DNA from: a virus
Lineage: Duplodnaviria; Heunggongvirae; Uroviricota; Caudoviricetes
Reading direction: 5' to 3' (one strand)
IMG/VR virus record: IMGVR_UViG_2711768040_000011
Span: 1-44,606 of that record
Length of the DNA stretch: 44,606 nt
Below, piece by piece: positions 1,273 through 44,606 of the stretch; within the stretch, counting starts at the first letter, position 1, and each line of letters starts with the position of its first letter. The notes beneath the pieces were generated by a model. It did not search any database. It was not told the origin of the DNA and was given only the letters and a program-made list of their open reading frames with translations. Both the position numbers and the translations under genes were made by a program.

Positions 1273-1542
1273 TATCGTTGAGTATTAGCCTTGGTCAACC
1301 CGAAATTTTCTGATTTTCGTTACTGAGAGCTTAGGTATGGTGTAAGCTATTGACGTTAGTTTGCTCTCAACAAGTTACTAACTAGGGGGTCAGGCGGGCT
1401 TCGCTCTCTTGACCCCTGACTTTCCACATTGGTAGTTGTCCACTCCCTGCATCTGTTTTTACAAAGCACATAATCATTACACAAATTAAGCTTTATGATT
1501 ATAATGCTATTGTCTCTACATCTTTTGAGCCTAACAATCAAT

Positions 1543-2655
1543 ATGAAATTATCTCAAAATCAGTCTGATGCACTTGAGTCTCTCAGGGGGTTGTCAGCTA
1601 TCGCAGTGTTAATCTGTCACTTTTTTCAGGTCTTTCTGGCTAGATTTTATCCTGATTACTTTCATGCCGATTTGATCATTGCTCAGTCTAGCGTAATGAT
1701 TTTTTTTGTTATGAGTGGCTTTCTTATTGGTGTATCAGTGCAGTCAAACATCAGTCGAAACGGAAGTTTTGACCTCATTTCGTATGCCAAATCACGATTT
1801 CTTCGTATTTACCCGCCTTTATTGTTTGCCATTATATTGTGTTTCATTTTGTCTAGCTTGGCCCCAATTTTCTTTGAAAGCGGAAGCGCCTCTTTCATGA
1901 TCCCAGATGCTTTTACACGAGGTAAATCTCTGGAAATGCCAGCAAAAGAGATTTTGGCCTCACTTACTTTCATGAATGGATTCTTGCCAGTAGGTGCAAA
2001 TTTTAACTCCCCTCTGTGGAGCCTACCGTACGAGGTGTGGTACTACGTTGTCTTTGGCCTACTTGCAACTCTACGCCCTGGGCTTGTGATTCTTGGTCTT
2101 ATTTTTTTCTTTGTCATTTCAATGGCAAATGATCGCTTCATGGCTTACTCAGTAATATGGGGAGCCGGTTTCGCAATGTCATTCTTACTTTCAAGAACTG
2201 CTTATGCTAAAGCGCTATGTGTTATCGGGCTTGCTTATTTCGGTTATCAATCTTATTTAAATGCAGGAACATTCCTGGACGGAACAACCGATCTAGAAAT
2301 GTATAAAATTACATTCGGCCTCGCATTTTCCATGCTCGTTTATATAGCACTCTTCATTTATGACCTGCCTTTCAAGGTGTTAAAGAAATCATCAAAAATT
2401 TCATACACGTTATATATCACTCATTTCCCTGTTATGCTTTTCTTCATCGGAGCTTTCGAGTACACAGTTAAAAATGATGCTTCGTTATCTGCGGTCATTG
2501 GGATCTGCGCAATGGTTGTGGCCTTAATCATTTCGCATTACGCATCACAAGTTTTTGAGAACAAAAAAGTAATGGCTGCAATGTTTATGAAAAAGGCCAT
2601 GCAAGAAAAATCAAATATCAGAAGTCCGGAGCATACGTCCCTGACACAAAAATAG
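1543..2655 (+). CDS. membrane acyltransferase (acyltransferase-3/OafA family; putative O-antigen O-acetyltransferase, lysogenic conversion)
   Basis: Multi-TM protein with ESLRGLSAIAVLICH motif typical of acyltransferase-3; AT-rich; in-frame alternative start at 1495; 3' end overlaps tailspike 3' end. Confidence 0.8.
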   Translation: MKLSQNQSDALESLRGLSAIAVLICHFFQVFLARFYPDYFHADLIIAQSSVMIFFVMSGFLIGVSVQSNISRNGSFDLISYAKSRFLRIYPPLLFAIILCFILSSLAPIFFESGSASFMIPDAFTRGKSLEMPAKEILASLTFMNGFLPVGANFNSPLWSLPYEVWYYVVFGLLATLRPGLVILGLIFFFVISMANDRFMAYSVIWGAGFAMSFLLSRTAYAKALCVIGLAYFGYQSYLNAGTFLDGTTDLEMYKITFGLAFSMLVYIALFIYDLPFKVLKKSSKISYTLYITHFPVMLFFIGAFEYTVKNDASLSAVIGICAMVVALIISHYASQVFENKKVMAAMFMKKAMQEKSNIRSPEHTSLTQK

Positions 2656-25381: not shown

Positions 25382-25457
25382 TGGTGCTGATTGACGGAGT
25401 TGAACCGCCGACATCCTGCTTACAAGGCAGGCGCTCTACCTACTGAGCTAAATCAGC
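25382..25457 (-). tRNA. tRNA-Thr (anticodon UGU), phage-encoded
   Basis: 76-nt cloverleaf GCTGATT...AATCAGC-A-CCA: 7-bp acceptor stem, U8, GG in D-loop, anticodon loop CTTGTAA, T-loop TTCAACT, encoded CCA. Confidence 0.8.
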
Positions 25458-28287: not shown

Positions 28288-28499
28288 ACGGCCTCCTTAA
28301 CGGAAACCGCAGAATGCAGAAAATCGCAGGTGCATTTCTGCATCTGTGACAATGTGAGGAGTTCAGATTGTGGTCGCATTTAAGTCCCCTTAAATGCGCA
28401 GAAGTCACCAATGGGTGTTCAGACCATCAGCAAAGAAAGTATGGACGGTTGATTCAACAAAATCAACTGAAGAGAAAGGCCTCCGGAGAGGCCAATGAG

Positions 28500-29559: not shown

Positions 29560-30260
29560 TTATCCTCCTGCTGAGGTGCTGCTGAAGATGCAAAAATATC
29601 AATCAGCGTATCTTCTCCCATGCTATTGCAATGAGCCTGAAGCCTATTGATGATTGCCTGAAGAGCAAACTTCGGAACCATATTTTCCTTACCTATCTGC
29701 GGGCAGTTTTCGGTACCGAACCAAAATTGCTCGATCTGCAGCAGCAGACCATTTTTGCCTTCAGTTGCACTGAATACGCCGAACGCTTCAATGTCGTATG
29801 CTTTCGCAATCACAGGAGAGTTGCCATCGGCACCCTGAAGCATGGCGGCGCGGCGCTCCCAGTCAGCTATTGCGGCTGAATGTTCCATCGAGTCGTCGCC
29901 AAACTCAGCATGTGCGCACTCGTCTGCCGCATTGGCGGCAGTTTTCGCAATCGTCAAGAGATCTGACAGGAGCGAATCAGATATCGGTGCTGGCGGGGCG
30001 GTGTAAAGCGGCTCACATTCCCAGCCTTGCTTTTGCCAGGATGCCAGGACATTTTTTGAATCTGTCAGAAGGCCGTGATTCTCGTAATAAAGCGATCGCC
30101 ACGCCACAGGATCCGCTTCGAGAGATGCCAGCGCGATACGAAACACCTCTGCAGTCATGCTGCGAGGCGACTGATTGTCATGCGCTGGGTCGGTAAGGAA
30201 GCCAGTAATAAACGCCTTCAATTGCTGATTGTGAATATCGCGTTTGTCGATGTTGCTCAT
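29556..30260 (-). CDS. hypothetical protein
   Basis: ORF start MSNIDKRD (ATG 30260; ORF open to 30275); coupled to neighbours. Confidence 0.5.
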   Translation of the reverse strand: MSNIDKRDIHNQQLKAFITGFLTDPAHDNQSPRSMTAEVFRIALASLEADPVAWRSLYYENHGLLTDSKNVLASWQKQGWECEPLYTAPPAPISDSLLSDLLTIAKTAANAADECAHAEFGDDSMEHSAAIADWERRAAMLQGADGNSPVIAKAYDIEAFGVFSATEGKNGLLLQIEQFWFGTENCPQIGKENMVPKFALQAIINRLQAHCNSMGEDTLIDIFASSAAPQQEDK

Positions 30261-30904
30261 TGGGCGGTCCTCCAACCTTCACATTCAATGTCACTGCAGC
30301 CATCGAAATCGTATGGATTTAGCTGCCAGCTAATCTTTCCGCAGCAAGGGCAATTCCAGCGAACCTTACCGCTGCGTGATTTTTTTCGGTTGTGCTTTTT
30401 CAGCCACTCAGGCATGACAAGCCCTGCCGCCTGAACCATGGTGCGTCGGTTAAACTCATTGATGCTGAACGTGCGGCGCTTAGCCTTGTCAGCTAAAGCA
30501 AAAGGAATCCAGACAATGCCAGGCTCTGCCGTGTTGGCGGATACAAAAACGAATGCCTTACTGAAGTCGTCAGTTGGAAGGCCTCCATGTTGCAACCAGT
30601 ACACATCGTTACCGTTCCAACTGCCTTTTTTGTAGGCCACATAGGACTCACAGCCAGGCTCAATAACACTTTCGGTAGGTATGTACTGACAATCGACATG
30701 CCAGACAGCCATGGAATCAACACTGTCAGCGCAAACCGGCTGATCAATCTCTCTACCCAATTCCCAGCTTCTTTGAGCTTCTTCACGGGTGTACACGTGG
30801 GCGCGGTCTATATTGGAGCTATATCCGTTGCCGTTGTGGCAGTGGAATGACGCGTTACTGCCAACCGTTTCGCGAGTACAAAGCATGTAAAATCTATCGC
30901 TCAT
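30257..30904 (-). CDS. hypothetical protein with C-terminal CPCCG Cys cluster
   Basis: 215-aa ORF, overlapping start/stop with neighbours. Confidence 0.5.
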   Translation of the reverse strand: MSDRFYMLCTRETVGSNASFHCHNGNGYSSNIDRAHVYTREEAQRSWELGREIDQPVCADSVDSMAVWHVDCQYIPTESVIEPGCESYVAYKKGSWNGNDVYWLQHGGLPTDDFSKAFVFVSANTAEPGIVWIPFALADKAKRRTFSINEFNRRTMVQAAGLVMPEWLKKHNRKKSRSGKVRWNCPCCGKISWQLNPYDFDGCSDIECEGWRTAQ

Positions 30905-34185: not shown

Positions 34186-34724
34186 ATAACCCCCAGCATC
34201 GACGTGACCATCGTCATCAGTGGTCCTACCTGCTCCGGCATGAGGCGGAACAGCGAAGCTATACCCTCGCTTACCTCTTTCAGCTTCTGATGCTCTGGGG
34301 CGTCCAAAAGCACGGCCTGTTTAGCTTCAGCACACTCTTTCATCGCAGAAGCGATCAGCGACATCGTGTCGTTCTGCGGCGCCAGGCGGTTGCGGTACTC
34401 CAGCGGCAATACGGACATGATTGCGGGTGTCAGCTGGCGCACGTTCTCGCGGTACTGTTCGGAGTCGAAACGGTTATCCAGGAAGCGGAACAGCTTCTGG
34501 CGCGCACGGCTGATGTCGTCAGGAAAGCTGATGGCGGTCCCGCCCTGCTCCCGGTATTCGTTGATGATCAGTGCCGAAACGACGTCCTGATTGTCCAGCG
34601 CCGAAGACCATGCCCGGACCGCATCGCGGATCTTTTCGTGGTCAGGCGCCGCCTTAGGTTGAGCGCGGTTTATCATCGCTCCCGGGTGTATTCCGGTATT
34701 GTGTTGATACGCAAGTGAATGCAT
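34182..34724 (-). CDS. YdaT-like protein (functional CII-equivalent family of Rac-type prophages)
   Basis: INEYREQGG and LTPAIMSVLPLEYRNRL blocks resemble Rac YdaT; located directly downstream of Cro-like gene. Confidence 0.6.
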   Translation of the reverse strand: MHSLAYQHNTGIHPGAMINRAQPKAAPDHEKIRDAVRAWSSALDNQDVVSALIINEYREQGGTAISFPDDISRARQKLFRFLDNRFDSEQYRENVRQLTPAIMSVLPLEYRNRLAPQNDTMSLIASAMKECAEAKQAVLLDAPEHQKLKEVSEGIASLFRLMPEQVGPLMTMVTSMLGVM

Positions 34725-34741
34725 TGCTTTCCCTTTCGTGG

Positions 34742-34975
34742 TTAGGCCGCAGTATCACGCGGCGATGCGAATACCAGGCTTTCTTTTAGGACCGGAGCCT
34801 GGCGGTGAAAATTCTTCGTGCCTTTCTCGATAGCAGATGCCATTTCTGGAGATGCCCGGCGATTTCCGTAGGCGATCTGGTCCAGGTAACCTGGCGTCGT
34901 GTTAGCCAACTTTGCGAGCTGCGCCCATTCGTCGGTAGTGGCGGCCTTGCGCCAGCGGTGTAGTTCAGTGCTCAT
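34742..34975 (-). CDS. Cro-like / YdaS-like HTH regulator
   Basis: 77-aa ORF with HTH (WAQLAKLANTTPGYLDQIAYG), divergent from cI across operator region. Confidence 0.65.
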   Translation of the reverse strand: MSTELHRWRKAATTDEWAQLAKLANTTPGYLDQIAYGNRRASPEMASAIEKGTKNFHRQAPVLKESLVFASPRDTAA

Positions 34976-35007
34976 TGGTGTCTCCGGGTGAGTCGTTTGA
35001 TTTGGAG

Positions 35008-35073
35008 TTTAGCGTTATGCTAAATACTACGCAAGCATCATTTAGCAATTTGCACATTTATCATTTTGCTAAA
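35008..35073. promoter_or_regulatory. OR-like operator cluster (TTTAGC-N5-GCTAAA palindromes) with divergent promoters
   Basis: TTTAGCgttatGCTAAA at 35008-35024, TTTATCattttGCTAAA at 35057-35073, weaker site at 35041-35057. Confidence 0.5.
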
Positions 35074-35091
35074 AGCAGTAACAATGCAGGT

Positions 35092-35769
35092 ATGGAAAAT
35101 AAAGAAATCAGAAAAGCCAACCTGGAAGCGCTGTACGAGAAGCGTCAGCACGAGTCTGGAATGACCAAAGCGCAGTTTGCCGAGCTCATCGAGACAAGTC
35201 CGGCTGCGCTTAGCCAGCTACTGGGACCAAACCCTCATCGCAATATCGGCGATAAGATGGCTCGCAAAATTGAAACTGCGCTTGATCTGCCTTTTGGCTG
35301 GATGGATGTTTTACACGCCAGTGAAGAACCTTCGAACGTTGCATTTCGAGGACTGAACGAGACAAAAGGAAGTTATCCTGTAATCAGCTGGGTAAGCGCG
35401 GGGCAATGGATGGAAGCTGTAGAACCTTATCACCGAAGAGCGATAGATCGCTGGTATGACACGACTGTTGACTGCTCAGAAGATTCATTCTGGCTGGACG
35501 TTAAAGGGGATTCTATGACCTCCCCGGCTGGACTGAGCATACCCGAGGGAGCAGCGATACTTGTTGATCCTGAAGTCGAGCCGCGCAACGGAAAGCTGGT
35601 TGTCGCGAAGCTAGAAGGCGATAACGAAGCGACCTTTAAGAAGCTTGTAATCGATGCCGGCAGACGCTTCCTAAAGCCCCTTAACCCCGCATATCCAATG
35701 CTAGAAATTAATGGAAACTGCAAAATCATCGGCGTTGTGGTTGATGCCAAAATACTAAACATCCCATAA
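35092..35769 (+). CDS. cI: CI-type prophage repressor (HTH + LexA-like S24 autopeptidase)
   Basis: N-terminal HTH, Ala-Gly cleavage site (SAGQW), GDSM Ser and FKKL Lys motifs; ATG 35092 (ORF open from 34975). Confidence 0.9.
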   Translation: MENKEIRKANLEALYEKRQHESGMTKAQFAELIETSPAALSQLLGPNPHRNIGDKMARKIETALDLPFGWMDVLHASEEPSNVAFRGLNETKGSYPVISWVSAGQWMEAVEPYHRRAIDRWYDTTVDCSEDSFWLDVKGDSMTSPAGLSIPEGAAILVDPEVEPRNGKLVVAKLEGDNEATFKKLVIDAGRRFLKPLNPAYPMLEINGNCKIIGVVVDAKILNIP

Positions 35770-35788
35770 CCTCACGCAAAACCCCTCA

Positions 35789-35813
35789 AGCCCGCCATCG
35801 CGCGGGCTTTTTT
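35789..35813 (+). terminator. rho-independent terminator after cI
   Basis: agcccgc-catcgc-gcgggct hairpin followed by TTTTTT. Confidence 0.6.
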
Positions 35814-35885
35814 ACGTCCCGAATTCCTTCGCTGTAAATTTTTAATCGCTTATTAATCAATACGCTAAATAAAACCATTCAACAA

Positions 35886-35927
35886 TTTAGCATTTTGCTA
35901 TTGCGCATAATTTAGCATCACGCTAAA
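35886..35927. promoter_or_regulatory. OL-like operator cluster (TTTAGC-N5-GCTAAA)
   Basis: Perfect TTTAGCatcacGCTAAA at 35911-35927 and partial TTTAGCattttGCTAtt at 35886-35902. Confidence 0.45.
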
Positions 35928-36124
35928 TTCACCCTATCGAAACGAAACATCGACAGCTGAGCGAAGTTAGCCAGCGGCGAAGTGGAGATTCGGTCAGTCG
36001 AACGGCGCGACAGTAAACCATGCGTCGGACCATAGGCGGGCTCAGGAAGAGCGGCAATTATGGCTAAACGATTTACCAGCAGCTCTTTGCGAGGGGCTGA
36101 CGGTAAACAATCAGAGGGGTGTAT

Positions 36125-36466
36125 ATGTCAGATAAAAAAATGGCGCCACTACTGCTCAATGTAGACGCCAGCGAAGTGCTTACCCAGACCGGGGAGCTTT
36201 TAAAGTTACTTGAACTTCCAGCCAGCTCCCTTCAGGGAATTCCTGAGCATGTCGTCGATCTGTTTTTTGACCGTGTCCGTGGCCTGATTGACAACATCGT
36301 CCTTAGTGATTTCGCGACCACAGTCAGCACAACTGACGCCGGTGAAATTTGTCTCAAAGTCAAAATCATCGGGCTGGTTGAACATCTCACTTCCGCAGTC
36401 AGGGCACACGGTCCGCATGGTTTGCATGAACATATCCTTTCTACTGTTGGGGAGCTTAAAGAGTAA
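36125..36466 (+). CDS. hypothetical protein (first gene of early-left operon); conflicts with antisense ORF
   Basis: 113-aa ORF with GAGGGG SD, same strand as downstream early genes; not Arg-rich. Confidence 0.4.
   Translation: MSDKKMAPLLLNVDASEVLTQTGELLKLLELPASSLQGIPEHVVDLFFDRVRGLIDNIVLSDFATTVSTTDAGEICLKVKIIGLVEHLTSAVRAHGPHGLHEHILSTVGELKE
36206..36433 (-). CDS. alternative antisense small zinc-ribbon protein (two CxxCG pairs)
   Basis: MFMQTMRTVCPDCG...CADCG ORF with AAAGGA SD; fully overlaps 36125-36466 on opposite strand, so only one is likely real. Confidence 0.3.
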   Translation of the reverse strand: MFMQTMRTVCPDCGSEMFNQPDDFDFETNFTGVSCADCGREITKDDVVNQATDTVKKQIDDMLRNSLKGAGWKFK

Positions 36467-36655
36467 GCGATTTCTTGCTGTTGGGGAATAGCGGGAAAGC
36501 GCGCGCCGGGCGCGGATAAATACCCCGGCAATAACTGGAATGTTTTGTAGTGCAGTGAATTGCAGCTGCATCGACGGCAACCGGAAGATAAGCACCCGGC
36601 GCTGCACCACAAAGCATTTCTCCCGCATCAGCGGGTAACGACAGAGGGTAAGGGG

Positions 36656-41922: not shown

Positions 41923-42012
41923 ACAGCATCAGCGCATCGCCGTGTGGCGGGTGACATCCCGCCAAATAACGACGATCAACTGAACATCAACACATTATAT
42001 GTACATACGACC

Positions 42013-43104
42013 ATGAACATTCAGATCAAAACACTATCTGTCCGAATTAAAGACAAGCACGCAGCCGTTTTGCGGCAGATGGCCTTTGAGGTCAATCAGA
42101 TCTTTAATCTGGCAAACGAGATAACCAGCGCAGCATACGGCAACGCTGGCTTTTTTGGCGCGCAAAAACCGCAATGGCTATCGGCGTTTGATGTTCAGAA
42201 ACCGCTCCTTAAAGAGCGAAAAGAGCGCGGGTATACCATCCCCAGCCATACCGTACAGGAAATCGCAGCAATTCACGGCAAGGCACGGAAGCAATTTAAA
42301 CGCTCTCGCTTACGCTGGCGAGTCAGTGGGGGATCTCGCCGTTCGTTGGGTTGGGTGCCGTTTAAAATAGGCAGCGCTGTCTGGAAAAATGGCGCGGTGC
42401 GGTTCGCTGGCAGGATTTTTAATGTCTGGGATAGCTACGGCTTGGGAGGATTTAAATTCCGTGCTGGAAGCTTTTCAGAAGACAGCCGTGGACGCTGGTA
42501 CTTCAATGTTTGCGTAGAGGTCGAAACTGTCCCATCAACGGCCACTTCCGCCGTGGGTATCGATTTAGGGCTGAAAGACTACGCCACCCCGTCAGAAGGT
42601 GATCCGCTGATTGCCGGTAGATTCTATCGAGATCTGGAGCCTGCATTAGGAAAGGCACAGCGTGCAAACAAAAAAGCCCGTGTACGCGCCATACACGCCA
42701 AAATTAAGAACCGCCGCAAAGATGCCCTGCACAAGTACAGCACGGCGCTGGTTAACAGCCATGCGGCAATATTCGTAGGCGACGCGAGCAGTAAGAAACT
42801 GGTTAAAACCAAAATGGCAAAAAGCATTTTGGACGCTGGCTGGTTCATGCTCAAAACACAACTGGAATATAAAGCGATTGCGCGGTCAGTGGTGTTTGAA
42901 GTGGTCAACGAAAGTTATTCCACCCAAGCTTGTTCGTGTTGCGGGGCTATCTCCGCCAACAGTCCGAAAGGTAGAGCAGGCCTGCGAATAAGAGAATGGA
43001 CTTGTTGTGAGTGCGGAACCACTCATGACCGCGACGTGAACGCCGCAAAGAACATTCTCGCGGCGGGGCATCGCCGTCTAGCTGTAGGAATCCCCTTCCT
43101 TTAG
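42013..43104 (+). CDS. tnpB: TnpB (RNA-guided endonuclease / IS605 OrfB family transposase accessory protein)
   Basis: RuvC-like blocks (SAVGIDLGLKDYAT; DRDVNAAKNIL) and C-terminal zinc finger CSCCG...CCECG; ATG 42013. Confidence 0.85.
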   Translation: MNIQIKTLSVRIKDKHAAVLRQMAFEVNQIFNLANEITSAAYGNAGFFGAQKPQWLSAFDVQKPLLKERKERGYTIPSHTVQEIAAIHGKARKQFKRSRLRWRVSGGSRRSLGWVPFKIGSAVWKNGAVRFAGRIFNVWDSYGLGGFKFRAGSFSEDSRGRWYFNVCVEVETVPSTATSAVGIDLGLKDYATPSEGDPLIAGRFYRDLEPALGKAQRANKKARVRAIHAKIKNRRKDALHKYSTALVNSHAAIFVGDASSKKLVKTKMAKSILDAGWFMLKTQLEYKAIARSVVFEVVNESYSTQACSCCGAISANSPKGRAGLRIREWTCCECGTTHDRDVNAAKNILAAGHRRLAVGIPFL

Positions 43105-43228: not shown

Positions 43229-43444
43229 ATGAATGACAGCATCCTGGTTACAAGCGAAATCCTTGCGCGCTACAAAATATCGCGCAGCACGCTCTATTTC
43301 TGGAGCACTCCCGCACGTATGCCATCCAGCTTTTCATGCCCATTCCCGAAACCAACCATCCCCGGAAATCCGAAGCGCTGGCGTGAGTCAGAAATCAAGT
43401 CATGGGAAGACAAGGTCAACTTTGCTAAAGGGGATACCCAATAA
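43229..43444 (+). CDS. alpA: AlpA-family phage regulatory protein / excisionase
   Basis: 71-aa ORF MNDSILVTSEILARYKISRSTLYFW (AlpA-type HTH), GGAGA SD, adjacent to integrase. Confidence 0.7.
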   Translation: MNDSILVTSEILARYKISRSTLYFWSTPARMPSSFSCPFPKPTIPGNPKRWRESEIKSWEDKVNFAKGDTQ

Positions 43445-44606
43445 TCTCCTGCAAATGCTTCTGCCAGATATCCAGCCATTCATGCTGATCGTCCATATAG
43501 TCATGAAGGTTGTATCTGGCCATAACCCCGCCCATCTGATGTCCGAGCAACTTTTCTATAACGTGTGGTGGAGCGCCAAGCTCGGACAGGCGCGTGGCCA
43601 CCGTTCTCCGCAAATCATGTAATGACCACTCCTTCATTCCGTTCTTACGCACTACCTGCATTGAGTACGTCGAGACAAGCGTCTGCCCAGGTGGGACATC
43701 TTCTTTATCCCGGAACTGTGCTGGAGTCAGAACGTGCTTAGTGATTGATCCGCGTTGATGCTCTTGCAGAAGCCTGACCGCAGTATCCGGCAACGCACGA
43801 CGAATAGTTTTACCGGTCTTATAATCCTCTGCCGGCACAGTCCAGGACCTTTCTTTGAAATCGAACCACTCCCATCTCGACTTTCTTATTTCTGCGGCGC
43901 GGCATCCGGTTAGAATCATGAACCTGATTACCAGTTGTTGAGAGGGAGGCAGAGAGAAAAGAGTATCCCACACCTGCTTTATCTCACTATCTGAAAGCCG
44001 CCTCTCCTTCATCTTCGCTGCTATACCGACATCCGATTTTCGTAACGACTCCAGTGGATTGGTTTTGATTACTCCCCTGTTGTGGCAGAACCGGAAAGCA
44101 CGCTTGGTCAGAGACAGCATCTCACCTGATATGACACTCCTCCCCATTGCATCGAAAACCTCAAGCCAGTTCGCCTTCACTGTCTGGTCCACAATAGCCT
44201 TCCCTAGCCGCGGGCTAATGTGCTTTTTGAAGCTTTTACCGTTCGCATCAATTTTAATGAGCCCCTCCGGGATACAGTAATGCTTCACCCAGTACTCATA
44301 GGCCTCATCGACTGTCAGCGCTTCTATTCTTTCAGCCTTCTCCACCAGCACTTTCTGCCGGGGATCATACCCCTCGCTCAACCACGCTCTGAACTGCTGT
44401 CTTCTGTCTCTCGCCTGAGAGAGTGAAATAGTTGGATAGTCACCAATGCTTAACTGCACAGGCTTGCCCAGCCAGCGATACCGATAGAAGAATGTGATAG
44501 AACCGGTTATGCTTAGACGCACATTCAGTCCGTTTGAATCAGAGAGAACCTCAACCTTCTCCCTGCGCTTTCCGAGCGACTTTCGTAACTTAGTATCTGT
44601 GAGCAC
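43425..44606 (-). CDS. int: tyrosine integrase (P4-like), N-terminus runs off window end
   Basis: HxxR block (HDLRRTVAT), LLGH and catalytic Tyr region (ARYNLHDY); first codon at the window edge. Confidence 0.9.
   Translation of the reverse strand: MLTDTKLRKSLGKRREKVEVLSDSNGLNVRLSITGSITFFYRYRWLGKPVQLSIGDYPTISLSQARDRRQQFRAWLSEGYDPRQKVLVEKAERIEALTVDEAYEYWVKHYCIPEGLIKIDANGKSFKKHISPRLGKAIVDQTVKANWLEVFDAMGRSVISGEMLSLTKRAFRFCHNRGVIKTNPLESLRKSDVGIAAKMKERRLSDSEIKQVWDTLFSLPPSQQLVIRFMILTGCRAAEIRKSRWEWFDFKERSWTVPAEDYKTGKTIRRALPDTAVRLLQEHQRGSITKHVLTPAQFRDKEDVPPGQTLVSTYSMQVVRKNGMKEWSLHDLRRTVATRLSELGAPPHVIEKLLGHQMGGVMARYNLHDYMDDQHEWLDIWQKHLQEIIGYPL

What the first reader, a model, noticed from the sequence alone, without database searches (positions are those of the whole stretch)
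34976..35935. Immunity switch: cI flanked by TTTAGC-N5-GCTAAA operator clusters
Within the 117-bp cro-cI divergent region there are three 17-bp sites matching TTTAGC-N5-GCTAAA (one perfect, two partial). Another perfect site plus partials lie downstream of the cI terminator, upstream of the plus-strand early operon. This resembles lambda OR1-3 and OL and defines the likely immunity specificity.
Basis: partly seen in the sequence, partly recalled or inferred. Interest (0 to 1): 0.4.

Follow-up and report, generated by a model that had tools for sequence, protein, structure and literature searches.

The report
Operator sites of a prophage switch
Two clusters of three short palindromic DNA sites on either side of a prophage repressor gene are almost certainly where the repressor (and its antagonist Cro) bind; this is an ordinary lambda-type lysogeny switch whose recognition sequence I found described in no paper and which is a close cousin of that of Shiga-toxin phage H-19B.

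Summary
TTTAGC-N5-GCTAAA occurs exactly twice in 44.6 kb (0.00 expected). Both copies and four degenerate copies lie in two clusters: S1-S3 between cro and cI, and S4-S6 after the cI terminator.

In 16-18 divergent relatives the half-site columns are 97-98% identical, against 60-67% for neighbouring non-site columns. Pantoea relatives keep the geometry but carry T instead of G at half-site position 5 in S1, S3 and all three left-operator sites (S2 is also T-type).

The two perfect sites sit between conserved TTG and TAAAYT hexamers of two inverted 30-nt promoter modules, which I read as PR and PL. S3 overlaps a conserved weak promoter whose -10 lies 7 nt before the cI ATG, so cI mRNA is probably leaderless, as in lambda. 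CI has an HTH domain, an Ala-Gly cleavage site and a Ser/Lys dyad.

The closest studied system is phage H-19B: CI N-terminal domain 51% identical, Cro 61%, same site geometry. The window lacks H-19B's fourth right operator.

Verdict: a new member of a known kind, of low to moderate interest. No binding, transcript start or immunity test exists.

The parts
34742..34975 (-). cro-like gene (77 aa, HTH), first gene of the minus-strand early operon
   Evidence: ORF. Weak HTH_3 hit, below the Pfam cut-off. PHROG 'transcriptional repressor'. 61% identical over the full length to H-19B Cro.
35006..35011 (-). Inferred PR -10 hexamer (TAAACT on the minus strand); overlaps S1 by 4 nt
   Evidence: Read from the sequence. 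The whole hexamer is conserved as TAAA(C/G)T across the wider family. Part of a 30-nt inverted repeat with PL. Below the consensus-scan threshold.
35008..35024 (.). S1 (OR1-like): TTTAGCGTTATGCTAAA, perfect dyad, inside the PR spacer and -10
   Evidence: Both half-sites invariant in 18 divergent relatives.
35029..35034 (-). Inferred PR -35 hexamer (TTGCGT on the minus strand), 17-nt spacer to the -10
   Evidence: The TTG is near-invariant in relatives while the neighbouring bases vary. Only 3 of 6 match the consensus.
35041..35057 (.). S2 (OR2-like): TTTAGCAATTTGCACAT, strong left half and degenerate right half; centre at -43 from the cI ATG
   Evidence: 3 mismatches, not significant alone. 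Left half invariant and TTTGCAYAT conserved. 93% identical to the left part of S5 (family D3).
35057..35073 (.). S3 (OR3-like): TTTATCATTTTGCTAAA; shares one base with S2 and overlaps the inferred PRM -35 and spacer
   Evidence: 1 mismatch. Half-sites conserved and the central 5 bp free to vary. The same G/T-hybrid site is present in H-19B.
35058..35063 (+). Inferred weak PRM -35 (TTATCA, 16-nt spacer; alternatively TTTATC at 35057-35062 with 17 nt)
   Evidence: Read from the sequence; inference only.
35080..35085 (+). Inferred PRM -10 (AACAAT), ending 7 nt before the A of the cI ATG, which implies a leaderless cI mRNA
   Evidence: Across 50 distinct family members: position -11 is A in 50/50, -7 is T in 50/50, -8 is A in 47/50, and -14 is G in 43/50. 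The distance to the ATG is fixed.
35092..35769 (+). cI repressor, 225 aa: N-terminal HTH, Ala103-Gly104, Ser141, Lys183
   Evidence: Peptidase_S24 E=1.9e-29; HTH_3 22.9 bits against a cut-off of 23. Aligns to lambda CI 3bdn at E=5e-32. Residue positions. Start codon supported.
35788..35809 (+). cI terminator hairpin followed by a T run
   Evidence: Conserved position in relatives.
35853..35869 (.). S4 (OL3-like): TTAATCAATACGCTAAA; good right half, poor left half
   Evidence: 2 mismatches. The right half is GCTAAA in all but 2 of the 16 G-type relatives compared (L073 AGCTAAA-shifted, L075 GCTAAT), and becomes GATAAA in Pantoea and GATATT in H-19B.
35886..35902 (.). S5 (OL2-like): TTTAGCATTTTGCTATT; its last two bases are the first two of the PL -35
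   Evidence: Invariant in 16 relatives. H-19B has TTTATCATTTTGCTATT at the same relative place.
35901..35906 (+). Inferred PL -35 (TTGCGC), 17-nt spacer
   Evidence: TTG invariant in relatives. Arm of the 30-nt inverted repeat with PR (I1).
35911..35927 (.). S6 (OL1-like): TTTAGCATCACGCTAAA, perfect dyad inside the PL spacer and -10
   Evidence: Invariant half-sites.
35924..35929 (+). Inferred PL -10 (TAAATT)
   Evidence: Invariant in relatives. Mirror of the PR -10.

Best explanation
The six sites are the operators of a lambda-type CI/Cro switch in a lambdoid prophage.

Shown from sequence and comparison:
- Each site is a 17-bp dyad, consensus A-TTTAGC-N5-GCTAAA-T. The half-site centres are 11 bp apart, as expected for a helix-turn-helix dimer.
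- The sites form two clusters flanking cI.
- They are conserved while their flanks drift.
- In Pantoea relatives with a diverged CI N-terminal domain, position 5 is T instead of G in S1, S3, S4, S5 and S6, and S2 is also T-type.

Inferred mechanism:
- CI dimers bind the perfect sites S1 and S6. These lie between the -35 (TTGCGT / TTGCGC) and -10 (TAAACT / TAAATT) of PR (minus strand, towards cro, the YdaT-type CII-like gene and the replication genes) and PL (plus strand). Binding there blocks RNA polymerase.
- S2 and S5 each have one good and one poor half-site. They are probably filled cooperatively from S1 (33 bp away) and S6 (25 bp away).
- CI at S2, centred at -43 from the cI ATG, could activate a weak promoter PRM. 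The conserved -10 of PRM places the transcript start at the ATG, giving a leaderless cI mRNA as in lambda.
- S3 overlaps the PRM -35 and spacer. It would shut PRM at high CI concentration, or when Cro binds.
- Induction would go through RecA-stimulated self-cleavage at Ala103-Gly104 by the Ser141/Lys183 dyad.

The module is a relative of the H-19B immunity region, with G instead of T at half-site position 5.
For: Enrichment and clustering.

Genes:
- CI has Peptidase_S24 and a borderline HTH_3 hit, and aligns along its length with lambda CI (E=5e-32), with the Ala-Gly, Ser and Lys in place.
- The cro-like protein is 61% identical to H-19B Cro.
- The CI N-terminal domain is 51% identical to that of H-19B.

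Conservation in relatives:
- OR, 18 divergent relatives: half-site columns 0.971 mean identity (30 of 35 invariant), against 0.597 (2 of 28 invariant) for non-site, non-promoter columns; Mann-Whitney p=6e-11.
- OL, 16 relatives: 0.981 (32 of 36 invariant) against 0.666 (5 of 63 invariant); p=8e-14.

Coherent switch: Pantoea loci keep the geometry but read TTTATC / GATAAA / GATATT in S1, S3 and the three left-operator sites; the left half of S2 is TTTATC, its right half GAACAT. H-19B shows the same geometry at OR and OL.

Promoters:
- The PR and PL modules are a 30-nt inverted repeat, 83% complementary.
- The TTG of each -35 and the TAAAYT of each -10 are conserved.
- PRM -10: A at -11 and T at -7 in 50 of 50 distinct relatives, at a fixed distance from the ATG.

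The left cluster stays with the early-left operon when a gene is inserted after cI (L041, L071).
Against: - No binding, footprint, transcript-start or immunity data exist for this module.
- The consensus promoter scan found no sigma-70 promoter in 34700-36200. The proposed PR and PL match only 7 of 12 consensus positions.
- S2 has 3 mismatches and is not significant on its own.
- S2 and S3 share a base pair, with centres 16 bp apart, so simultaneous occupancy is uncertain.
- The left half of S4 is poor in all relatives.
- The comparison cannot tell CI binding from Cro binding.
- My attempt to tie the G/T switch to a recognition-helix residue of CI failed.
- Many relatives are closely related, so the p-values overstate independence.
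Confidence: 0.82

Rival explanations
1. Only the well-matched sites (S1, S3, S6 and perhaps S5) are real operators. S2 and S4 are single half-sites or are conserved for other reasons: promoter -35 or upstream elements, or a host-factor site around the conserved AATCAA of S4. The switch would then have two sites per side rather than three.
For: S2 has 3 mismatches and is at chance level alone. The left half of S4 is poor, and its AATCAA core stays the same in the G-type, the T-type and H-19B loci instead of switching. S2 and S3 overlap by 1 bp.
Against: The good halves of S2 and S4 are conserved in G-type relatives and are T-type in Pantoea. The degenerate right half of S2 is itself conserved (GCAYAT). 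S2 and S5 share a 14-nt core at 93%. A review reports four operators for H-19B OR, which has the same S2/S3 arrangement (PMC8065619).
Confidence: 0.13
2. The dyads are bound by Cro, or by another phage regulator such as the YdaT-type CII-like protein, and not by CI. CI would recognise a different sequence.
For: Comparison cannot separate CI from Cro, because both genes always accompany the sites. The putative recognition helix of Cro is nearly constant across G-type and T-type loci.
Against: In all studied lambdoid switches CI and Cro share operators (established knowledge of lambda, 434 and P22). No other repeated dyad is present in the two regions. The CI N-terminal domain diverges along with the operator type, whereas Cro hardly does. 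CP-933P YdaT binds TTGATT-N6-AATCAA, a different motif (PMC9986795). H-19B has the same sites but a lambda-type CII.
Confidence: 0.04
3. The matches are chance palindromes in AT-rich promoter DNA and have no regulatory role.
For: The half-site hexamer is not enriched in the window as a whole: 25 copies against about 21 expected. The 3-mismatch class is at background.
Against: No shuffle reproduces the exact, 1-mismatch or 2-mismatch counts. There is extreme clustering, near-invariance in relatives and a coherent G-to-T switch.
Confidence: 0.01

Closest known systems
Phage H-19B (Stx1 phage) immunity region: cI, cro, OR and OL (Shi & Friedman 2001, known to me only through the review PMC8065619; sequence AF034975)
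   Same: The CI N-terminal domain is 51% identical and begins with the same MENK(E/D)IRK. Cro has the same length and is 61% identical. OR geometry is the same: site, 16 nt, then two sites sharing one base, then a fixed distance to the ATG. OL has the same pair 25 bp apart, with TTTATCATTTTGCTATT against TTTAGCATTTTGCTATT here. The S3-type site is essentially the same: TTTATC-N5-GCTAAA.
   Different: Position 5 of the strong half-sites is T (or C) in H-19B and G here. H-19B has an extra site (TTTATCACACAGAACAA) next to OR1, and the review counts four operators in its OR; the window has none there. The CI C-terminal domain is only distantly related (37% over the whole protein). H-19B has a lambda-type CII and an N gene 1.9 kb from cI; the window has a YdaT-type CII-like gene.
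Bacteriophage lambda OR1-3 / OL1-3 with CI and Cro
   Same: Divergent cI and cro. Three 17-bp dyads on each side. The strongest site overlaps the lytic promoter. The middle site lies at about -42/-43 of PRM and the third site over PRM. The cI mRNA is probably leaderless. The CI C-terminal domain is homologous, with the same cleavage site and catalytic dyad (the lambda facts are from established knowledge).
   Different: The operator sequence is unrelated (lambda TATCACCGCCAGTGGTA, quoted in PMC5977221). Centre-to-centre spacings are 33 and 16 bp at OR here, against 24 and 23 bp in lambda. OL lies about 0.9 kb from OR, against 2.3 kb (PMC2685085 abstract). There are no rexAB genes, and the CII analogue is of YdaT type.
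Salmonella phage P22 c2 repressor
   Same: The C-terminal two-thirds of the cI gene (window 35383-35752) is about 77% identical in DNA to P22 c2. The cleavage and oligomerisation domain is therefore of the P22/lambda kind.
   Different: The DNA match does not extend into the N-terminal DNA-binding domain. P22 operators have ATTTAAG-type half-sites (my recollection of Poteete et al. 1980 and Watkins et al. 2008; not checked here).
Klebsiella phages KO-TP1 (PQ571297) and vB_Kpn_Chronis (MN013086)
   Same: They carry the same immunity type. CI N-terminal domains are 93% and 73% identical, and all six sites are present with identical half-sites.
   Different: Neighbouring genes differ (mosaic genomes). 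Neither record annotates operators, and a full-text search for 'KO-TP1' found no paper.
IncP plasmid KorB operator OB (TTTAGC-S-GCTAAA)
   Same: The hexamer arms are the same. It surfaced in the literature search.
   Different: One central base instead of five, so the two half-sites are 7 bp apart, not 11. It is bound by a ParB-family protein. No korB-like gene was noticed in the window. This is a look-alike only.

Membership tests
Lambda-type CI/Cro immunity switch (OR/OL) | Divergently transcribed repressor and cro genes separated by a short control region | tested here: met
   cro-like gene at 34742-34975 (-) and cI at 35092-35769 (+), 116 bp apart.
Lambda-type CI/Cro immunity switch (OR/OL) | Repressor with an N-terminal HTH domain and a C-terminal LexA/S24 self-cleavage domain (Ala-Gly site, Ser/Lys dyad) | tested here: met
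   Peptidase_S24 E=1.9e-29. HTH_3 scores 22.9 bits, just under the cut-off of 23. Alignment to lambda CI 3bdn at E=5e-32. Ala103-Gly104, Ser141 and Lys183 are present.
Lambda-type CI/Cro immunity switch (OR/OL) | Three related dyad-symmetric sites of about 17 bp in the control region | tested here: met
   S1, S2 and S3. Conserved in 18 divergent relatives. S2 is weak on its own.
Lambda-type CI/Cro immunity switch (OR/OL) | A second cluster of the same sites at the start of the other early operon | tested here: met
   S4, S5 and S6 after the cI terminator. Conserved. The cluster stays with the operon start when a gene is inserted after cI.
Lambda-type CI/Cro immunity switch (OR/OL) | Sites overlap the lytic promoters and a repressor-maintenance promoter | tested here: inconclusive
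   Conserved TTG-17-TAAAYT modules around S1 and S6, and a conserved nAnAAT 7 nt before the ATG. But no promoter passes the consensus scan, and there are no transcript-start data.
Lambda-type CI/Cro immunity switch (OR/OL) | CI and Cro bind the sites with opposite order of preference; CI binds cooperatively | not testable with these tools
   Needs purified proteins or in-vivo reporters.
H-19B-type immunity module | CI N-terminal domain and Cro homologous to those of H-19B | tested here: met
   51% over 75 aa. Cro 61% over 77 aa.
H-19B-type immunity module | Same operator geometry at OR and OL | tested here: met
   Ungapped alignment of OR from S1 to the ATG, and the 25-bp pair at OL.
H-19B-type immunity module | Half-site TTTA(T/C)C / GATAAA, i.e. 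the same immunity specificity | tested here: not met
   The strong half-sites here carry G at position 5. With the H-19B-type pattern, S1 and S6 have 2 mismatches each.
H-19B-type immunity module | Four operators in OR (review PMC8065619, citing Shi & Friedman 2001) | tested here: not met
   No site with 3 or fewer mismatches between the cro start and S1. H-19B has TTTATCACACAGAACAA there.
KorB OB site of IncP plasmids | 13-bp palindrome TTTAGC-(G/C)-GCTAAA | tested here: not met
   The spacing here is 5 bp in all six sites.

The most novel reading that the evidence does not exclude
In this repressor family, immunity specificity may be set largely by one base pair: position 5 of the half-site, G here and T in the Pantoea and H-19B lineages.

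- That position is the same in the strong half-sites of a given phage. The weak half-sites tend to carry the other lineage's base.
- The PRM-overlapping site S3 stays a G/T hybrid in nearly all lineages.
- Cro's recognition helix stays almost unchanged across lineages.

If so, CI would read this position and Cro would not. Natural hybrids (L097, L105, L107/L108) would be intermediates of an immunity change. That would make the family a ready-made system for studying repressor-operator co-evolution.
Probability: 0.3. Interest if true: 0.45.

Novelty: new member of a known kind. Interest (0 to 1): 0.25.

Why it matters
It gives a concrete, testable operator map for an immunity type found in 127 of 5,426 complete E. 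coli genomes (27 carry the whole region). The same type occurs in Enterobacter, Citrobacter and Klebsiella prophages and phages.

It corrects the annotated start of the repressor gene.

It places the module in a family with phage H-19B in which operator geometry is fixed while one base of the half-site varies. That is useful for predicting superinfection immunity among prophages and for choosing orthogonal repressor-operator pairs. It does not change how lambda-type switches are understood.

Tried and rejected
1. A specificity-determining residue. In the first set of relatives, CI residue 39 (third residue of the putative recognition helix) was A, M or T with TTTAGC operators and Q with TTTATC operators. 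A second scan found several lineages with Q and TTTAGC operators (L098-L104, L166-L172), so the idea is refuted. Ser36 remains a weak candidate only.

2. KorB OB site. It has the same hexamers but a 1-bp centre, so I rejected it.

3. YdaT as the binder. The conserved AATCAA in S4 and a TTGATT in the cro leader resemble halves of the CP-933P YdaT site (PMC9986795). But AATCAA is equally conserved in H-19B, which has a lambda-type CII. The TTGATT is not conserved. No full site lies near cro.

4. Consensus promoter scan. It found no hit in 34700-36200. The promoters are therefore inferred from conservation only.

5. Rfam. Nothing in the region; only a tRNA elsewhere.

6. Hairpin in the PL leader. 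By eye it seemed to covary, but the formal count gives only 1 of 4 pairs with a compensatory change.

7. Primary literature. The primary paper on H-19B operators (PMID 11532127) and the 933W operator paper (PMC524894) are not held. Full-text searches for TTTAGC with operator, repressor and phage, and for KO-TP1, found nothing on this operator.

8. The 1-mismatch site at 30318-30334. It lies inside an ORF and is absent from the related E. coli prophage L093, whose genes there differ. I treat it as probably chance.
Full report
**What is there**

The window is a lambdoid siphovirus prophage. It carries tail fibre, tape measure, capsid and terminase genes, a NinG gene, kil, a Bet-like recombinase and an integrase at the right end.

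In the region of the finding:
- A 77-aa HTH protein gene lies at 34742-34975 on the minus strand.
- A 225-aa repressor gene lies at 35092-35769 on the plus strand, 116 bp away.
- The repressor has a borderline HTH_3 match and a strong Peptidase_S24 match (E=1.9e-29).
- It aligns along its length with lambda CI (3bdn, E=5e-32). Ala103-Gly104 aligns with the lambda cleavage site, Ser141 with Ser149 and Lys183 with Lys192.
- Downstream of cro come a YdaT-domain CII-like gene, an O-like gene and a DnaB-like helicase gene.
- A terminator-like hairpin follows cI at 35788-35809.

TTTAGC-N5-GCTAAA occurs exactly at 35008-35024 and 35911-35927 and nowhere else in 44.6 kb. The expectation is 0.00, and no shuffle gives 2. 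With at most 1 mismatch there are 4 sites against 0.05 expected. With at most 2 mismatches there are 6 against 1.5 expected. Five of those six are in the two clusters.

| Site | Coordinates | Mismatches |
|---|---|---|
| S1 | 35008-35024 | 0 |
| S2 | 35041-35057 | 3 |
| S3 | 35057-35073 | 1 |
| S4 | 35853-35869 | 2 |
| S5 | 35886-35902 | 2 |
| S6 | 35911-35927 | 0 |

S2 is not significant on its own. The hexamer is at its expected overall frequency, but 8 of its 25 copies fall in these two clusters. A repeat finder run without the motif recovers the same family. It also finds a 30-nt inverted repeat, 83% complementary, between 35005-35034 and 35901-35930.

**Relatives**

The 1.4-kb region is found at 98.7% identity or more in 27 complete E. 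coli genomes, and in part in 127 of 5,426. Among deposited phages only Klebsiella phage KO-TP1 carries it, at 91% DNA identity. Klebsiella phage Chronis has a CI N-terminal domain 73% identical.

Scans with the N-terminal domain brought in about 170 loci from Enterobacter, Citrobacter, Atlantibacter, Phytobacter, Biostraticola, Pantoea and viral contigs.

In all of them the stretch from S1 to the cI ATG aligns without a single gap.

| Region | Relatives | Half-site columns | Other columns | Mann-Whitney p |
|---|---|---|---|---|
| OR | 18 divergent, TTTAGC-type (median pairwise N-terminal-domain identity about 60%, ungapped count) | 0.971 identity, 30 of 35 invariant | 0.597, 2 of 28 invariant (promoter hexamers excluded) | 6e-11 |
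| OL | 16 | 0.981, 32 of 36 invariant | 0.666, 5 of 63 invariant | 8e-14 |

The sequences are related, so these p-values overstate independence, but the contrast is plain in the alignments. The central five bases of S3, S4 and S6 vary freely. Those of S1 and S2 are nearly fixed.

**The strongest single argument: a coherent switch**

Pantoea prophages (L011, L012, L094-L096; CI N-terminal domain about 50% identical) keep the same geometry at both clusters. In them S1, S3 and all three left-operator sites read TTTATC, GATAAA or GATATT where the window reads TTTAGC, GCTAAA or GCTATT. The left half of S2 is TTTATC too, with a degenerate right half. A change at the same position of physically separate sites is what a change in the specificity of a shared binding protein predicts. 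Chance or promoter constraints do not predict it.

Two further points fit the operator reading. In loci L041 and L071 a lipoprotein-like gene is inserted after cI, and the S4-S6 cluster has moved with the start of the plus-strand operon. The half-site centres are 11 bp apart, about one helical turn, as expected for a helix-turn-helix dimer (established principle).

**How the sites sit on the promoters (inferred)**

No sigma-70 promoter passes the consensus scan. The promoters below therefore rest on conservation and position.

- **PR and PL.** On the minus strand, TTGCGT (35034-35029), 17 nt, then TAAACT (35011-35006) encloses S1. On the plus strand, TTGCGC (35901-35906), 17 nt, then TAAATT (35924-35929) encloses S6. 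These are the two arms of the 30-nt inverted repeat. The TTG and the TAAAYT are conserved in relatives while bases between them vary. I read these as PR and PL, with starts near 34999 and 35936. A repressor on S1 or S6 would occlude polymerase.
- **PRM.** The hexamer at -12 to -7 from the cI ATG has A at -11 and T at -7 in 50 of 50 distinct relatives, A at -8 in 47, and G at -14 in 43. This fits a -10 element whose transcript starts at the A of the ATG, giving a leaderless cI mRNA as at lambda PRM.
- **Start codon.** An in-frame stop lies within five codons upstream of MENKEIRK in 10 of the 50 distinct relatives, and further upstream but still without any in-frame ATG in 4 more. This supports ATG 35092 as the start.
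- **S2 and S3.** With this start, S2 is centred at -43, the position from which lambda CI at OR2 activates PRM. S3 covers the weak -35 (TTATCA, 35058-35063) and the spacer, so it is placed to repress PRM.
- **Cooperativity.** S2 and S5 share a design, a strong half plus a degenerate half, with 93% identity over 14 nt. This suggests dependence on cooperative binding from S1 (33 bp away) and S6 (25 bp away).

**Relation to known systems**

The closest studied relative is Stx1 phage H-19B.
- Its CI N-terminal domain is 51% identical and its Cro 61%.
- Its OR has the same layout, including two sites sharing one base. Its OL has the same 25-bp pair.
- Its strong half-sites carry T or C at position 5.
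- It has an extra site next to OR1, and a review states that H-19B OR has four operators (PMC8065619). The window has no such site.
- I could not obtain the primary paper.

The C-terminal part of cI is instead about 77% identical in DNA to P22 c2, the usual mosaic pattern. The window's CII analogue is of the YdaT type characterised in prophage CP-933P (PMC9986795, PMC8630535). H-19B has a lambda-type CII.

**Limits on 'defines immunity specificity'**

G-type and T-type operators differ at one of six half-site positions. H-19B itself mixes them: its OR3 right half is GCTAAA. Relatives with hybrid sites exist (L097, L105, L107/L108). The weak half-sites of each lineage tend to carry the other lineage's base, and S3 is a G/T hybrid nearly everywhere. 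The putative recognition helix of Cro (GYLDQIAYG) is almost the same in both groups.

I tried to link the switch to CI residue 39, and more data refuted it. Whether this prophage and H-19B are hetero-immune is therefore open.

**Verdict**

This is a real and well-supported operator set of an ordinary lambda-type switch. It is a new member of a known kind. I found no paper describing this operator sequence. Everything beyond sequence and comparison is inference by analogy: binding, cooperativity, activation, the leaderless transcript and induction.

Noticed in passing
window 28449-28466; L093 3427-3444: A perfect TTGATT-N6-AATCAA palindrome (TTGATTCAACAAAATCAA) lies in an intergenic stretch of the nin region. 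My rough estimate of the chance expectation for an exact match is about 0.003. This is exactly the site bound by the YdaT protein of prophage CP-933P (PMC9986795). It is conserved, with a different centre, in a related E. coli prophage. No such site lies at the cro/ydaT junction of the window, which is where CP-933P has it.
   Followed up: partly
window 35017-35091: RefSeq (E. coli XJ5.2) and the KO-TP1 record start cI at the ATG inside operator S1, 25 codons upstream of MENKEIRK. Among 50 distinct relatives, 10 have an in-frame stop within 5 codons upstream of MENKEIRK and 4 more have no in-frame ATG before the next stop. The upstream stretch shows operator-like rather than codon-like conservation. 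The annotated N-terminus is probably an over-extension.
   Followed up: yes
window 36206-36628 (-): An ORF of the 'ECs_2282 family putative zinc-binding protein' kind (two CxxC motifs) lies antisense to the inferred PL transcript, just downstream of OL. It overlaps a 115-aa plus-strand ORF (36119-36466) that has only a marginal PHROG hit.
   Followed up: partly
window about 35950-35985: A conserved leader follows PL (CATCGAAACGAAACATCG) and then a hairpin (GCTG.GC / GC.CAGC). Variants in relatives read GCGGC/GCCGC. A formal count gives only 1 of 4 pairs with a compensatory change. There is no Rfam match. No boxA-like sequence is seen here, whereas the Pantoea relatives have GCTCTTTAACAA after their PL.
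   Followed up: partly
window 30318-30334: An operator-like site with one mismatch (TTTAGCTGCCAGCTAAT) lies inside ORF 30257-30904 (-). Sites with at most 1 mismatch are expected 0.05 times per window. It is absent from the related prophage L093, whose genes there differ.
   Followed up: partly
window 41944-43104 (+): An ORF matching transposase families (PHROG 506, E=1e-68) sits between the early-left genes and the integrase gene (43425-44606, minus strand, running to the window end). It is probably an IS insertion in the prophage.
   Followed up: no
window 25382-25457 (-): A tRNA-Thr (anticodon TGT) gene lies inside the prophage, near the late regulatory and lysis region.
   Followed up: no
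window 1495-2655 (+): An O-acetyltransferase / O-antigen acetylase-like ORF lies next to the tail-fibre gene. It is a likely lysogenic-conversion gene.
   Followed up: no
L098, L100-L104 (viral contigs), about 11 nt upstream of their S1: One lineage of relatives carries an extra GCTAAA half-site 5 nt before S1 (GCTAAAgctagTTTAGCgttatGCTAAA). This may be a counterpart of the fourth operator of H-19B.
   Followed up: no
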